The position numbers and the translations under genes are program-made. 64,000 bases of DNA from Escherichia coli 042. GTDB lineage: Bacteria; Pseudomonadota; Gammaproteobacteria; Enterobacterales; Enterobacteriaceae. The stretch is taken from the NCBI RefSeq assembly GCF_000027125.1, contig NC_017626.1; one strand, given 5' to 3'. Below, in pieces: positions 37,637 through 48,416 of the stretch. A model generated the notes under the pieces. That model was not told the DNA's origin. It searched no databases and saw only the letters and a program-made list of their open reading frames with translations. How positions within the stretch are numbered: position 1 is the stretch's first letter; each line of letters begins with the position of its first letter.

Positions 37637-40507
37637 CTATGCTGATAAACTATTTGTCATCATAAAATCAGCCATTAACCCTGAAACTGTGCGACTTAAT
37701 TCAATTTCATTATGTGGGATAAGCGCATATCTCCATACTTTTCCGCCATTCTTTGCTGCATTCTGATTGGCAAATTCACACCAGCGCAGGGCTGCCCGTG
37801 TTTTGGCCTGAACTTCAGGAGTATCGATTTCATTGGCTTTTTTCGGTTCAATAAGACAGTACCCATTGTTCATTTCAACCACAAAATCCGGCTCATAGTT
37901 TCTACCATTAGTATATTCAATACGGAATTGTCCAGGGCGAGGCTTCATCCAGCGCACCACTGAAGCATCGTTCTCCAGTATTTGCGCCAGACGAAGTTCC
38001 CCATCGACGGAGTCAAATTTCTGATAAGGGTAGCAGCATTTATTGAAACCAGTGAAAATCATCTGGCGAACTTTATTTTTTTCACCACCGGGAATGGCGA
38101 CACGAAAATCTCTCGGTTTTTCATTTCCGGCAAAATTGAATGTGGCTGGATGTATAACATCGAATCCCTGAGTTATGCGTCCGGTATAACCCGTTGGCGT
38201 TGTCCACATATTTTGTTTGATTTGTGCCCACATAAATTCTGCCAGTTGACGGCCTGCATTTTTCAGAACGGATTCTGCATCTTCCTGCGGCTGATAACTG
38301 CACAAATGGCTCACCATTTGTCCGGCAAGTTTATAAAGCATATCGGCATGTTCATCGTAGTCAATTTCATCATGGTCGAGCAGATAACGAATGAGATAGT
38401 TTTCTAACCGTTCTTCCGTTTCACCGCCTTCCTGCCAACTGATTGTCCGCTGTTCGTTATTCTCCAGATGCGTCAGAAGAAGCTCTTTACTGCCTGGTTT
38501 GAGCGCAATGCGATCCAGTCCGGAGAGGTTGAAATCATTAAACCCGTAATTGACTTCACGTTTTGGCAAAACCACGATTCGAGGAATATCAATAGTATAT
38601 TCCATCAGTTTTTCGGTGATCGTTCCGACCAGTTGCTGAACCTCTGCGTCTTCCATTGAGGGGAAACTCGGTTGTTCAGGTTGCTCTTCAATCATTTCAG
38701 CCAGATCGATTTGTGTAGAAGAGGGAGAGGTTTGGTGTTGAGTCACTTCCCATTCGCGCAAGGCTTGTTGCACCCGCCGTGTTACGTTCGCTTTGACTTC
38801 TGGCATACTGAGTTGCTGGCTGCTGGTTAACCGTTTTGCTTCTTCGGAGACGACTTTAAACGTGAGCTCGGCGACTTTACGTTCCGTTTCTGTACCGAGT
38901 ATCGGTTTTGGTGTTGAGTTTGTTCGGTATATCGCTTTATCTTCACAAAGCTGCAACCCACTATTATCGATAATTTGATTACCCAGCAGATATTCAGCCA
39001 TTGAGGGAACGATAATTTGCTGAGGTTTTACTTCTGGAATACCATTCTCATCATCATCCAGCCCGATATAGAGAACTTTTTTGATTATCGAGTCATCATT
39101 ATTGGCGCGATCGATAATCTCCTGAAAACGGTCATGAGCAATGATGGTCAGGCGATCAACGGCCTCGACGCCAGTTCTTTTTCCGTAGGGCAGGCGAAGT
39201 CCCCGGCCTATGGTCTGTTCAGTCAGAATTTCGGAGGCTGATGCACGTAACGGAACTATTGTGTAGAGATTGGTAACGTCCCAGCCCTCTTTCAACTTGT
39301 TGACGTGAATGACGATTTCAGTGTCTTTGTCATGCTCGACAGTCAACAGTCGCTGCATGGTTTCTTCTGATTCTTCGCCCGTCAGGTTAGAGTGGACGGT
39401 GATCACCTTGCCTCTGTACGCGCCGTTAAAAAATTCGTCATGCTCAATACGGGCTTTCAGCCTGTCCGCATGATCGGTATCCTGCGCTACGACCAACATA
39501 AACGGTTTAACCAGTTTGTTGCCGGTATTATTGGCGAAGCTGGTCAGTTCCGTTTTTACGTATTCATGATGGTGAATACCGTCTTCCAGCTTAATTTTTT
39601 CCAGTTGTTCTTCGGAATAATTTGCAGCCCGGAAGTCTTTGCGCGTGGCAACGGCAGGAATTTTGACATATCCATCTTTCAGCGCTCGCGAAAGAGGATA
39701 GTGATAAATTATGTTTCTGAAATCACGGGGATTTGCGCCCACCGTTTTCGGCGTGGCGGTTAATTCAATACCCAATACTGGATTCAGATCGTTAAGCGCC
39801 TGCGCGCCCGCGCTGGCGTAGTAACGGTGGGCTTCATCCATTAAAACGACTAAATCCGGCAAGTTTGCCAGATAGCTGAAATAAGACTCTCCCACGTATT
39901 CCTGAATCCGCCGGATTTTAGCGACTTTGGATTTAGCGGCCCCTTTGGCATTATCCAGCGCGTTGATTTTAGAAATATTGAAGATGTTAATATGTGGCGC
40001 GGTTTCGCCACCAAACAGATCGCCCGTTTTGCTTTCGGCAATCGCATAGTCCAGACGGACACCTCGCCCTTCCTGATAGTCATCGCCAGTGATTAATACT
40101 GGCGGCGTTTGCGCCAGTTCAGGGATACCCTGAAAAACGTATTTTGGCGAACCGGGTAAAAAATCCATCTTGAGTTTTTCATAGATGGTCAGGTTAGGAG
40201 CCAGCACGAAAAAATGACGACTGCGCCCGGTTAGGTATAACCAGGCAATCATCGCCCCCATTAAGCGCGTTTTGCCCACGCCGGTCGCCAGTGCAAAGCA
40301 GAGTGAAGGAAAGGCGCGTTCAAATCCTTTTACCGTTGGGTATTGCTGATGCAGCACCGCCAGCCAGCGATTAAGATCGGGATCTTTACTGAGATCGAGT
40401 TGTTCCAGCACGTCACATAAGATGCACAATGATTCATCCTGCGGATCGCGCAGAGACAGTCGTGCGCTAACTCGATTGACAATTTTAACGGCGTTATTCT
40501 GGCTCAT
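37637..40507 (-). CDS. res: Type III restriction-modification system restriction subunit (Res, helicase-like)
   Basis: 956-aa product with Walker A (ALATGVGKTRLMG) and DEAH box (LVVLMDEAHRYY) motifs typical of Type III Res; directly downstream of mod with a 2-nt gap. Confidence 0.82.
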   Translation of the reverse strand: MSQNNAVKIVNRVSARLSLRDPQDESLCILCDVLEQLDLSKDPDLNRWLAVLHQQYPTVKGFERAFPSLCFALATGVGKTRLMGAMIAWLYLTGRSRHFFVLAPNLTIYEKLKMDFLPGSPKYVFQGIPELAQTPPVLITGDDYQEGRGVRLDYAIAESKTGDLFGGETAPHINIFNISKINALDNAKGAAKSKVAKIRRIQEYVGESYFSYLANLPDLVVLMDEAHRYYASAGAQALNDLNPVLGIELTATPKTVGANPRDFRNIIYHYPLSRALKDGYVKIPAVATRKDFRAANYSEEQLEKIKLEDGIHHHEYVKTELTSFANNTGNKLVKPFMLVVAQDTDHADRLKARIEHDEFFNGAYRGKVITVHSNLTGEESEETMQRLLTVEHDKDTEIVIHVNKLKEGWDVTNLYTIVPLRASASEILTEQTIGRGLRLPYGKRTGVEAVDRLTIIAHDRFQEIIDRANNDDSIIKKVLYIGLDDDENGIPEVKPQQIIVPSMAEYLLGNQIIDNSGLQLCEDKAIYRTNSTPKPILGTETERKVAELTFKVVSEEAKRLTSSQQLSMPEVKANVTRRVQQALREWEVTQHQTSPSSTQIDLAEMIEEQPEQPSFPSMEDAEVQQLVGTITEKLMEYTIDIPRIVVLPKREVNYGFNDFNLSGLDRIALKPGSKELLLTHLENNEQRTISWQEGGETEERLENYLIRYLLDHDEIDYDEHADMLYKLAGQMVSHLCSYQPQEDAESVLKNAGRQLAEFMWAQIKQNMWTTPTGYTGRITQGFDVIHPATFNFAGNEKPRDFRVAIPGGEKNKVRQMIFTGFNKCCYPYQKFDSVDGELRLAQILENDASVVRWMKPRPGQFRIEYTNGRNYEPDFVVEMNNGYCLIEPKKANEIDTPEVQAKTRAALRWCEFANQNAAKNGGKVWRYALIPHNEIELSRTVSGLMADFMMTNSLSA

Positions 40508-48416: not shown

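What the first reader, a model, noticed from the sequence alone, without database searches (positions are those of the whole stretch)
37637..48416. Tightly packed five-gene defence-like array: SNF2 helicase, AAA ATPase, S8 subtilase, Type III mod, Type III res
All five genes are on the minus strand with intergenic gaps of only about 1-25 nt, which argues for one transcription unit. Gene boundaries are SNF2 stop 45550 / ATPase start 45524-45548, ATPase stop 44544 / S8 start 44534, S8 stop 42147 / mod start 42137, and mod stop 40510 / res start 40507. A candidate sigma-70 promoter lies on the minus strand upstream of the SNF2 gene (-35 TTAGCA at 48470-48465, -10 TAAAAT at 48446-48441). Each protein has the catalytic motifs of its family, as listed in the features. 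The AAA/S8 pair resembles the two-gene IetAS module, but I do not recognise its fixed linkage to an SNF2 helicase and a Type III R-M system as a described system. Two members (SNF2, mod) are frameshifted here, so this copy may be inactive.
Basis: partly seen in the sequence, partly recalled or inferred. Interest (0 to 1): 0.7.

Follow-up and report, generated by a model that had tools for sequence, protein, structure and literature searches.

The report
IetAS protease module nested in SNF2/Type III restriction operon
This E. coli island operon is a three-gene restriction system (SNF2 motor, methylase, nuclease) with a two-gene ATPase/protease suicide module inserted inside it; the parts are known, but the nesting has not been described and suggests how the protease is controlled.

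Summary
Five tightly packed minus-strand genes sit at the stated coordinates: a DrmD-like SNF2 helicase, IetA, IetS, a Type III mod and a Type III res. SNF2 and mod each carry a 1-bp deletion. Neither deletion occurs in any of 65 near-identical complete E. coli genomes, so only this copy is broken, or mis-sequenced.

The interpretation needs revising. SNF2+IetA+IetS was published as the anti-T7 system 'ietHAS' (NAR 2026). Co-localisation of RM III and ietAS in E. coli was noted earlier.

My synteny survey shows the array is composite.
- Across many phyla, homologues of this SNF2 are followed on the same strand by a Type III res in 39 of 49 informative loci; both mod and res were called in 35.
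- Most of those loci carry unrelated defence genes in the SNF2|mod or mod|res gaps.
- None of the surveyed loci carries IetAS.
- All six IetAS relatives examined at 62-70% identity are stand-alone pairs.

IetAS is therefore cargo embedded in an SNF2/Mod/Res backbone. It was probably captured once in Enterobacterales and has been kept under purifying selection since.

Best reading: a restriction layer with a nested abortive protease layer that has become wired to the SNF2 motor. I rate it a new variant of a known kind, of moderate interest.

The parts
48441..48470 (-). Candidate sigma-70 promoter (TTAGCA, 18-nt spacer, TAAAAT) upstream of the SNF2 gene
   Evidence: Found by the consensus scan at 9 of 12 matches. 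It carries no statistical weight: 10 promoter-like sites were found against 14.2 +/- 3.6 in shuffles. The published ietHAS construct was cloned with its native promoter; how much upstream DNA it included is not known to me.
45550..48398 (-). SNF2-family ATPase, DrmD-like, called 'ietH' in the literature. It is 949 aa when intact. Here a 1-bp deletion near 48176 (T5 to T4) splits it, separating the Walker A lysine K65 from the rest of the protein.
   Evidence: ORFs; the deletion. PADLOC DrmD E = 3.4e-201. NCBIfam DrmD_b scores 662 bits, below its 950-bit cut-off. K65 and D165-E-A-H are invariant in the family. The gene is intact in 65 of 65 near-identical genomes.
44544..45524 (-). IetA, an AAA+ ATPase of 326 aa: the antitoxin-like partner of the protease, and embedded cargo
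   Evidence: PADLOC IetA E = 3.9e-105. NCBIfam IteA scores 267 bits, below its 510-bit cut-off. A CAGGAG ribosome-binding site precedes the ATG at 45524. dN/dS is 0.03 between the two E. coli alleles.
42147..44534 (-). IetS, an S8 subtilase of 795 aa with Y4kK_N and Y4kK_2nd N-terminal domains: the toxin/effector, and embedded cargo
   Evidence: PADLOC IetS scores 1206 bits end to end. Pfam families PF27160, PF27210 and PF00082 are recorded for the 100%-identical protein. The Asp, His and Ser motifs are visible in the translation. dN/dS is 0.09.
40510..42137 (-). Type III Mod, a beta-class N6-adenine methyltransferase, 542 aa when intact. Here it is split by a 1-bp deletion near 41417.
   Evidence: PADLOC MTase_III scores 967 bits. 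The DPPYN and FAGSGTT motifs are in the translation; the deletion is. The central residues 120-320 are only 17-38% identical between the two E. coli alleles, while the ends are 92-97% identical; I read this as a swapped target-recognition domain. The gene is intact in 65 of 65 near-identical genomes.
37637..40507 (-). Type III Res, 956 aa: an SF2 ATPase with a C-terminal PD-(D/E)xK nuclease motif
   Evidence: PADLOC REase_III scores 2117 bits. The GVGKT, DEAH and EPDFVVE...IEPKK motifs are in the translation. Its identity to homologues tracks that of the SNF2 gene in the same loci: 92.8/92.7, 90.4/90.5, 69.2/71.7, 67.2/69.0, 63.1/66.4 %. dN/dS is 0.044.
37255..37548 (-). Small ORF of 97 aa, 88 nt downstream of res. 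It may be a truncated sixth gene of the cassette; membership is uncertain.
   Evidence: It is 68% identical to the N-terminus of a 168-aa protein at the same position in the 86% allele, which sits in a different island. It has no PADLOC or NCBIfam hit. An IS3 fragment abuts it in the reference annotation.
51382..52917 (-). Tyrosine integrase (51382-52644) and tRNA-Phe (52842-52917): the attachment end of the genomic island that carries the cassette
   Evidence: ARAGORN, the annotation of the identical region, and the flank genes dsbD, groL, aspA and dcuA.

Best explanation
The array is a composite operon.

**Backbone.** The backbone is a three-gene restriction-modification system: a DrmD-like SNF2 ATPase, a Type III Mod and a Type III Res. 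This trio is widespread across bacterial phyla. The SNF2|mod and mod|res junctions act as slots where unrelated defence modules are nested.

**Cargo.** In one Enterobacterales lineage the slot after SNF2 holds the autonomous two-gene module IetA-IetS, an AAA+ ATPase that restrains an S8 protease toxin. All five genes are probably transcribed from one promoter upstream of SNF2 (inferred).

**Likely working, inferred from family knowledge.**
- Mod methylates an asymmetric site on host DNA.
- The Mod/Res complex, assisted by the SNF2 translocase, cuts unmethylated incoming DNA.
- IetAS is a second, abortive layer.

Published mutagenesis of the SNF2+IetA+IetS sub-operon shows that the SNF2 ATPase motifs are needed both for defence against T7 and to keep the module non-toxic. 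The embedded protease has therefore become coupled to the backbone's SNF2 subunit. This resembles the way PrrC is held in check by the Type I enzyme EcoprrI.

**This copy.** In this window, 1-bp deletions break SNF2 and mod. If they are real, this copy has lost restriction, methylation and SNF2 control.
For: **Shown here**
1. Family assignments.
2. Survey of 80 SNF2-homologue loci from many phyla.
   - 49 loci have at least 7 kb of downstream sequence.
   - 39 of those 49 have a Type III res downstream on the same strand.
   - 35 of the 49 have both mod and res called. Of these, 25 have nested genes and 10 have none.
   - None carries IetAS in the slot.
3. The mod/res pairs belong to three different PADLOC Type III families. 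E. coli itself carries a cargo-free SNF2|Mod|helicase trio; distant SNF2 matches occur in about 184 further genomes, of which two were examined.
4. The slot cargo consists of known or candidate defence genes: HEC-01A ATPase with DUF4276, DinD/PDC-S13, PDC-S02, SoFic, PDC-S06, an AbiU-like protein (weak MzaE/AIPR match), a TrlF/Ppl-like ATPase, a HigA-like protein, and a Schlafen/AlbA_2 protein.
5. SNF2 and Res identities co-vary across loci.
6. All six IetS relatives examined at 62-70% identity are stand-alone AAA+S8 pairs.
7. The five-gene order is kept in Providencia and in an 86% E. coli allele sitting in a tRNA-Leu island. Between the two E. coli alleles dS is 0.6-0.9 and dN/dS is 0.03-0.09 for SNF2, IetA, IetS and Res; the Mod central (target-recognition) region is largely replaced.
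8. There are no junction terminators, and SNF2 overlaps its cargo by 4 nt in relatives.

**From the literature**
- In ietHAS, the K65A and D165A mutations of ietH abolish anti-T7 defence. The ietH mutant is toxic on induction. An ietA mutant could not be cloned (PMC13069673).
- That residue numbering matches this protein exactly.
Against: - The published three-gene construct defends without mod and res, so IetAS and SNF2 do not need the restriction genes for that phenotype.
- No experiment shows that SNF2 contributes to restriction by Mod/Res, or that any of these proteins interact physically.
- No methylation motif or restriction activity of this Mod/Res pair was retrieved.
- I could not confirm from supplementary data that Liu-DS4 is this exact locus.
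- The synteny survey used a crude ORF caller and BLAST thresholds, and it covered the best 80 of 576 candidate loci.
- A neighbour-joining tree mixes the A and B Type III classes, so SNF2 and Mod/Res are not strictly co-inherited over long distances.
Confidence: 0.7

Rival explanations
1. ietHAS (SNF2+IetA+IetS) is a self-contained three-gene system, and the Type III R-M is an independent neighbour. On this view the helicase was recruited by IetAS, as the NAR 2026 paper proposes.
For: The three genes alone protect against T7, and the SNF2 ATPase motifs are required. Defence systems often co-localise in islands without interacting.
Against: - Across phyla the SNF2 family is followed by Type III mod/res, not by IetAS (0 of 49 informative loci).
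- Close relatives at 66-72% identity keep SNF2, Mod and Res but carry other cargo.
- SNF2 identity tracks Res identity.
- IetAS relatives stand alone.
- In every complete E. coli genome with a full copy of this IetAS, all five genes are present (73 of 74).
Confidence: 0.2
2. All five proteins form one obligate machine, a new five-component system in which none works without the others.
For: The order is fixed and the spacing tight. All five genes are under purifying selection across alleles with dS of 0.6-0.9. The order is conserved across genera.
Against: - A three-gene subset is active.
- The backbone exists without IetAS, and IetAS exists without the backbone.
- In relatives the cargo in the slot is interchangeable.
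Confidence: 0.05
3. The juxtaposition is accidental, within a defence island, with no shared regulation or function.
For: The cassette lies in an IS-rich, mosaic tRNA-Phe island.
Against: - The same five genes, in the same order and spacing, occur in a different island at a tRNA-Leu gene and in Providencia.
- They have co-diverged to dS of about 0.6-0.9.
- No IS element, promoter cluster or terminator separates them.
- There is published functional dependence of IetAS on SNF2.
Confidence: 0.03

Closest known systems
ietHAS (Liu-DS4), NAR 2026, PMC13069673
   Same: A DrmD-like SNF2 helicase sits directly upstream of ietA and ietS in E. coli. The Walker A K65 and DEAH D165 numbering is identical to this protein. 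It is very probably the same locus.
   Different: The paper treats the helicase as an acquisition by IetAS and does not mention Type III R-M ('type III' occurs 0 times in its text). Here the helicase is shown to be the conserved partner of Type III mod/res, with IetAS as the inserted element.
IetAS: the Agrobacterium pTiC58 plasmid-stability toxin-antitoxin pair, later an anti-phage system (Gao et al. 2020, cited from memory and)
   Same: An adjacent AAA+ ATPase and S8 protease. PADLOC IetA and IetS models match end to end.
   Different: The proteins score below the NCBIfam equivalog cut-offs, 267 against 510 and 150 against 900, so this is a different subfamily. Here the pair is nested inside another system and depends on an SNF2 ATPase.
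Classical Type III restriction-modification systems such as EcoP15I and EcoP1I
   Same: The gene order is mod then res. Mod is a beta-class N6_N4 methyltransferase with a variable central region. Res is an SF2 ATPase with a PD-(D/E)xK motif.
   Different: There is a conserved third gene, the SNF2 ATPase, upstream. Foreign genes are nested between the subunits. Both proteins are distant from EcoP15I-type enzymes: the NCBIfam Type III Res model scores only 35 bits.
Class 1 DISARM (DrmD, DrmMI, DrmA, DrmB, DrmC)
   Same: The SNF2 protein's best family match is DrmD, and a methyltransferase gene follows it.
   Different: There are no DrmA, DrmB (DUF1998) or DrmC (PLD) genes. The nuclease-helicase is a Type III Res. 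The SNF2 scores below the DrmD_b cut-off.
[quoted passage not shown] 2024, bioRxiv 10.1101/2024.01.29.577857)
   Same: The cargo is nested between genes of a multi-gene modification-based system, in the same orientation. The same cargo families (HEC-01A, PDC-S02, PDC-S06, PDC-S13) appear in the slots of this backbone.
   Different: The preprint names four host systems (Hma, BREX, DISARM, RM Type I), and an SNF2/Type III backbone is not among them. For IetAS there is already genetic evidence of coupling to a host subunit.

Membership tests
IetAS | An adjacent AAA+ ATPase (IetA) and S8 peptidase (IetS) matching the family profiles | tested here: met
   PADLOC IetA PDLC02196 scores 350 bits over residues 2-322. 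IetS PDLC02198 scores 1206 bits over residues 3-794.
IetAS | NCBIfam equivalog cut-offs for IteA and IteS | tested here: not met
   IteA scores 267.5 against a cut-off of 510. IteS scores 150 against 900. This indicates a different subfamily from the one NCBI modelled.
IetAS | A catalytic Asp/His/Ser triad in IetS and Walker A/B motifs in IetA | tested here: met
   ILDSG, HGTAVAS and GTSFAAP in IetS; GPPGCGKT and LFDEFD in IetA, all read in the translations.
ietHAS (Liu-DS4) | A DrmD-like SNF2 helicase immediately upstream of ietA-ietS, with Walker A K65 and DEAH D165 | tested here: met
   Gene order. K65 and D165 are invariant at exactly those positions. The best family match is DrmD.
ietHAS (Liu-DS4) | Sequence identity to the construct that was tested | not testable with these tools
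   The supplementary tables are not held.
Type III restriction-modification | Mod is a beta-class N6/N4 methyltransferase with a central target-recognition domain | tested here: met
   PADLOC MTase_III scores 967 bits. DPPYN precedes FAGSGTT in the sequence. The central 200 aa are hypervariable between alleles.
Type III restriction-modification | Res is an SF2 ATPase with a C-terminal PD-(D/E)xK nuclease, encoded just downstream of mod | tested here: met
   PADLOC REase_III scores 2117 bits. The motifs are in the translation. The gap between mod and res is 2 nt.
Type III restriction-modification | A two-gene system, mod and res only | tested here: not met
   An SNF2 gene is conserved upstream in 39 of 49 informative loci.
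Type III restriction-modification | Hemimethylation of an asymmetric site, and ATP-dependent cleavage requiring two inversely oriented unmethylated sites | not testable with these tools
   No methylome or biochemical data for this enzyme were retrievable.
Class 1 DISARM | The DrmD SNF2 helicase | tested here: inconclusive
   It is the best hit, but NCBIfam DrmD_b scores 662 bits against a cut-off of 950, and only residues 26-647 align.
Class 1 DISARM | DrmA helicase, DrmB (DUF1998) and DrmC (PLD nuclease) | tested here: not met
   None of the five proteins or their annotated neighbours matches them. Res matches only restriction-endonuclease (REase) models.
Hma | HmaA, HmaB and HmaC | tested here: not met
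   SNF2 matches HmaA at only 163 bits, on the helicase core. HmaC is not among the eight PADLOC families that Res matches. HmaB is not among the best 25 of 58 families that Mod matches, all of which are Type II/III or orphan methyltransferase models.
MADS | MAD6, MAD7 and MAD8 are mandatory, together with kinase, specificity and methylase components | tested here: not met
   There is no MADS hit for SNF2, Mod or Res; IetA has only a marginal mad8 hit (E = 1e-4, 20 bits). The MADS composition is described in the source paper.
Embedded defence architecture (guilt-by-embedding) | The cargo lies between genes of a multi-gene host system, in the same orientation. The cargo is also found alone elsewhere, and the host is also found without the cargo. 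| tested here: met
   The host occurs without cargo in 10 of 35 loci and in E. coli locus L101. The cargo stands alone in 6 of 6 relatives examined. All genes are co-oriented.

The most novel reading that the evidence does not exclude
The DrmD-like SNF2 ATPase may be an integral third subunit of a large, unnamed class of Type III-like restriction systems, whose inter-subunit junctions serve as docking slots for abortive-infection modules. In Enterobacterales that subunit would directly hold the embedded IetS protease in check and release it when a phage engages or disables the restriction machine. This would be a protease version of the PrrC/EcoprrI guard circuit. It would also explain how IetAS senses infection and what DrmD-type helicases do.
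Probability: 0.3. Interest if true: 0.7.

Novelty: new variant of a known kind. Interest (0 to 1): 0.5.

Why it matters
- The sensing mechanism of IetAS and the role of DrmD-type SNF2 helicases are both unknown.
- If 'ietH' is really the conserved SNF2 partner of Type III mod/res genes, the published dependence of IetAS on it becomes a candidate case of a restriction machine guarding, or being guarded by, a protease toxin.
- The SNF2/Type III backbone would also be a fifth host type for guilt-by-embedding discovery. Its slots already hold many HEC and PDC candidates as well as unannotated genes.
- For genome annotation, it warns against calling the helicase an IetAS component, or calling the locus two unrelated systems.
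- The cassette is carried by E. coli O104:H4 strains (outbreak-era isolates such as 2011C-3493 and C227-11) and related strains, so it may affect their phage susceptibility.

Tried and rejected
- **MADS.** A relative's upstream gene is annotated MAD1. MADS is built from kinase, specificity and methylase components and recognises a bipartite motif, and none of my proteins matches MAD models beyond a marginal IetA/mad8 hit. Rejected.
- **Class 1 DISARM and Hma.** Only the SNF2 core resembles them. I first guessed that loci with weak Res hits were DISARM; PADLOC showed they are other Type III families.
- **Phase variation of mod or SNF2.** The deletions lie in a CC and a T5 run, not in long repeats, and no other genome shares them. 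Rejected. A private mutation or a sequencing error remains possible.
- **Methylation motif.** I tried to retrieve the motif of this Mod from O104:H4 C227-11 methylome papers. The primary paper is not held, and the others do not mention this enzyme.
- **Liu-DS4 sequence.** The supplementary tables of the ietHAS paper are not held.
- **Solved structures.** None is close: RapA and remodellers for SNF2, and only subtilisin cores for IetS.
- **Promoter and terminator statistics.** They give no signal above shuffles.
- **Literature on SNF2 with Type III R-M.** Searches found only gene lists, for example a Cronobacter island. The DISARM paper is not held.
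Full report
**1. What is in the window**

Six-frame ORF listing confirms five co-oriented minus-strand genes with gaps of 2-25 nt.
- res: 37637-40507
- mod: two overlapping pieces, 40510-41418 and 41394-42137
- S8 peptidase: 42147-44534
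- AAA ATPase: 44544-45524 (or to 45548 as the longest ORF)
- SNF2 gene: two pieces, 45550-48147 and 48141-48416

The 12-kb region is otherwise identical to 73 complete E. coli genomes, including O104:H4 strains (2011C-3493, C227-11), 55989 and E24377A. In those genomes RefSeq annotates five intact genes: SNF2 of 949 aa, AAA of 326 aa, S8 of 795 aa, methyltransferase of 542 aa, and a DEAD/DEAH helicase of 956 aa.

The window differs by two 1-bp deletions. One is CGCC to CGC near 41417 in mod. The other is T5 to T4 near 48176 in SNF2. Probes of 81 nt across each deletion match all 65 genomes of the >=99% allele at 98.8%, which equals one gap, and none exactly. The frameshifts are therefore private to this copy. 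They are either a strain-specific inactivation or assembly errors. They are not in repeat tracts of the kind that drive phase variation.

Across the 16.6 kb shared with strain HH35 there are only 13 substitutions and these two indels.

**2. Family assignments**

PADLOC profiles give the following.
- SNF2: DrmD, E = 3e-201
- AAA: IetA, 350 bits
- S8: IetS, 1206 bits end to end
- mod: MTase_III, 967 bits
- res: REase_III, 2117 bits

NCBIfam agrees on the kinds, but the DrmD_b, IteA and IteS matches (and every other NCBIfam match) fall below their curated equivalog cut-offs: DrmD_b 662 against 950, IteA 267 against 510, IteS 150 against 900. These are therefore distinct subfamilies. No solved structure is close.

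**3. What is already published**

- A 2026 NAR paper (PMC13069673; preprint December 2025) validated 'ietHAS' (Liu-DS4) from E. coli. This is ietAS plus an SNF2 helicase 'ietH' that resembles DISARM DrmD. K65A (Walker A) and D165A (DEAH) abolish protection against T7. The protease activity is required. An ietA mutant could not be built. Induction of the ietH mutant is toxic.
- In the present protein the Walker A lysine is K65 and the DEAH aspartate is D165, and both are invariant in an alignment of 13 family members. In complete E. coli genomes this IetAS type occurs only in this cassette. Liu-DS4 is therefore very probably this locus, although its sequence table is not held. That paper does not mention Type III R-M.
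- A co-occurrence study listed 'RM III and ietAS' among the few defence pairs that non-randomly co-localise in E. coli, without further analysis.

**4. Synteny from the SNF2 side**

The SNF2 family is large and well conserved. A scan of one genome per species returned 80 loci at 30-70% identity, from Proteobacteria, Bacteroidota, Firmicutes, Actinobacteria, Planctomycetota, Verrucomicrobia, Chloroflexi and others.

I mapped the E. coli proteins, and representatives of two further Mod/Res families, onto ORFs called in these loci.
- 49 loci have at least 7 kb of downstream sequence.
- 39 of the 49 have a Type III res downstream on the same strand.
- 35 of the 49 have both mod and res called.
- 25 of those 35 carry extra genes between SNF2 and mod, or between mod and res. 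10 carry none; where SNF2 directly abuts mod (for example L010, L027, L034, L046) the gap is 6-23 nt.
- None has IetA and IetS in the slot.

PADLOC shows that the two groups with weak similarity to the E. coli Res are other Type III families (MTase_III with REase_III), not DISARM. A rough neighbour-joining tree shows one Type III class largely clustered and the other two interspersed, so the SNF2 gene has re-associated with different Type III pairs.

E. coli itself carries a second, cargo-free SNF2|Mod|helicase trio; distant SNF2 matches occur in about 184 further genomes, of which two were examined.

**5. What sits in the slots**

Representatives of the nested genes are known or candidate defence proteins.
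- HEC-01A ABC ATPase, in the closest surveyed relative at 70% identity
- DinD/PDC-S13 together with an LmuB-like ATPase
- PDC-S02, a PD-DExK protein
- SoFic
- PDC-S06
- an AbiU-like protein (weak MzaE/AIPR match)
- a TrlF/Ppl-like ATPase
- a HigA-like/PD-Lambda-2_B protein

Closer relatives show the same pattern. In each of the three 66-72% relatives below, Mod and Res are 58-72% identical to the E. coli proteins.
- Aeromonas (SNF2 72%) has SNF2|AAA_21 ATPase + DUF4276|Mod|Res.
- Vibrio (69%) has SNF2|252-aa protein|Mod|Mod|Res.
- Methylobacter (66%) has SNF2|Schlafen-AlbA_2 + HATPase_c_4|Mod|Res.
- Providencia (SNF2 91%) has the same five genes as E. coli.

SNF2 and Res identities to the E. 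coli proteins move together: 92.7/92.8, 90.5/90.4, 71.7/69.2, 69.0/67.2 and 66.4/63.1 %.

**6. Synteny from the IetAS side**

IetS homologues at 60-70% identity are common. All six that I examined are stand-alone AAA+S8 pairs with no SNF2, mod or res nearby. They come from Dickeya, Klebsiella/Cronobacter, Pseudomonas, a Vibrio cholerae conjugative element, Serratia and a metagenome contig. Only the 88-100% identical set lies in the cassette.

**7. The cassette as a unit**

An 86% allele in E. coli JX21CE35 has the same five genes in a different island, at a tRNA-Leu gene with a different integrase.

Between the two alleles:
- dS is 0.58-0.93.
- dN/dS is 0.045 for SNF2, 0.030 for IetA, 0.092 for IetS and 0.044 for Res.
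- Mod keeps 92-97% identity at both ends but only 17-38% across residues 120-320. I read this as a target-recognition domain swap of the kind expected in an active R-M system.

IetAS was therefore captured before these alleles split, and all five genes have been kept under purifying selection since.

In the window the island sits at a tRNA-Phe gene flanked by dsbD, groL, aspA and dcuA. The identical cassette in HH35 sits at the other tRNA-Phe locus.

**8. Transcription**

No minus-strand terminator lies at a junction. Shine-Dalgarno-like sequences precede the IetA and IetS starts, and less clearly the SNF2 start; the mod stop lies 2 nt before the res ATG. One operon is the simplest reading, but it is inferred.

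**9. Mechanism**

*Shown here:* the architecture, the conservation and the selection.

*From the literature:* IetS is a protease toxin restrained by IetA, and in this variant the SNF2 ATPase is needed for defence and for non-toxicity.

*From established knowledge of Type III enzymes:* a Mod dimer methylates one strand of an asymmetric site. Res uses ATP to start sliding along DNA. Cleavage follows when enzymes bound at inversely oriented unmethylated sites meet.

*Inferred:*
- SNF2 works with Mod/Res as a DNA translocase or remodeller.
- IetAS is a second, abortive layer released when the backbone is engaged or inhibited. This would be analogous to PrrC in EcoprrI, a comparison Payne et al. 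draw for embedded systems in general.

I put about 0.7 on the composite-architecture reading and about 0.3 on the specific guard wiring.

**10. Comparison and novelty**

- The concept of embedding is published for Hma, BREX, DISARM and Type I R-M hosts. An SNF2/Type III host is not among them.
- I found no open-access paper describing SNF2 as a conserved Type III partner. Closed-access literature could not be searched.
- MADS, Hma and class 1 DISARM were tested and do not fit.

The locus is therefore made of known parts, with one sub-operon already validated. The nesting and the reassignment of 'ietH' to the restriction backbone are new as far as I can tell. I rate it a new variant of a known kind.

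**11. Limits**

- The ORF caller is crude, and some mod genes were missed in GC-rich loci.
- The survey covers the best 80 of 576 candidate loci.
- Cargo annotation covers representatives only.
- No functional data exist for Mod/Res or for SNF2 in restriction.
- The identity of Liu-DS4 with this locus rests on residue numbering and on uniqueness in E. coli.

Noticed in passing
window 1-~21000: A type VI secretion gene cluster (tssM, tssH, tssF, tssC, tssK, vgr) of low GC content (37-44%) occupies the left third of the window, in the same island region.
   Followed up: partly
window ~28840-32958 (-): The pic serine-protease autotransporter gene, by correspondence with the annotated identical region in strain HH35. 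It is flanked by IS3, IS30, IS66 and IS110 remnants at about 21800-28800 and 33157-37250.
   Followed up: partly
window 52842-52917 and 53000-64000: The island is attached at a tRNA-Phe gene next to dsbD, groL, aspA and dcuA. The identical cassette in strain HH35 is attached at the other tRNA-Phe gene, next to yqgA and speC, and an 86% allele sits at a tRNA-Leu island. The same module therefore occupies at least three tRNA sites.
   Followed up: partly
window 37255-37548 (-): A 97-aa ORF just downstream of res. It is 68% identical to the start of a 168-aa protein at the same position in the divergent allele (L082). An IS3 fragment abuts it here. It has no family match and may be a sixth cassette gene.
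   Followed up: partly
L096, L097 (Vibrio cholerae conjugative element) and L098 (Serratia): Stand-alone IetAS is immediately followed by an OLD-TOPRIM ATPase and a UvrD helicase (a Gabija-like pair) in two unrelated hosts. This is a recurrent adjacency.
   Followed up: no
L101 (E. coli B4103-1), L100 (E. coli MB46): E. coli has a second, cargo-free SNF2|Mod (1040 aa)|helicase (1126 aa) trio (L101); distant SNF2 matches occur in about 184 further genomes, of which two were opened. In MB46 a related SNF2 gene is preceded by a MAD1-like HTH gene, and IS1 lies directly downstream of it.
   Followed up: partly
L006 3347-12664: An SNF2 homologue of this family lies upstream (two intervening ORFs) of type I-E cas3 and cas8e instead of Type III mod/res.
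   Followed up: no
L086 12585-15795 (Vibrio metschnikovii): Two tandem mod genes lie between SNF2 and res, suggesting two specificities served by one Res.
   Followed up: no
window 48612-49402 (+): A divergently oriented small ORF and a DUF2931 protein lie directly upstream of the cassette promoter region. Neither has a defence-family match.
   Followed up: partly
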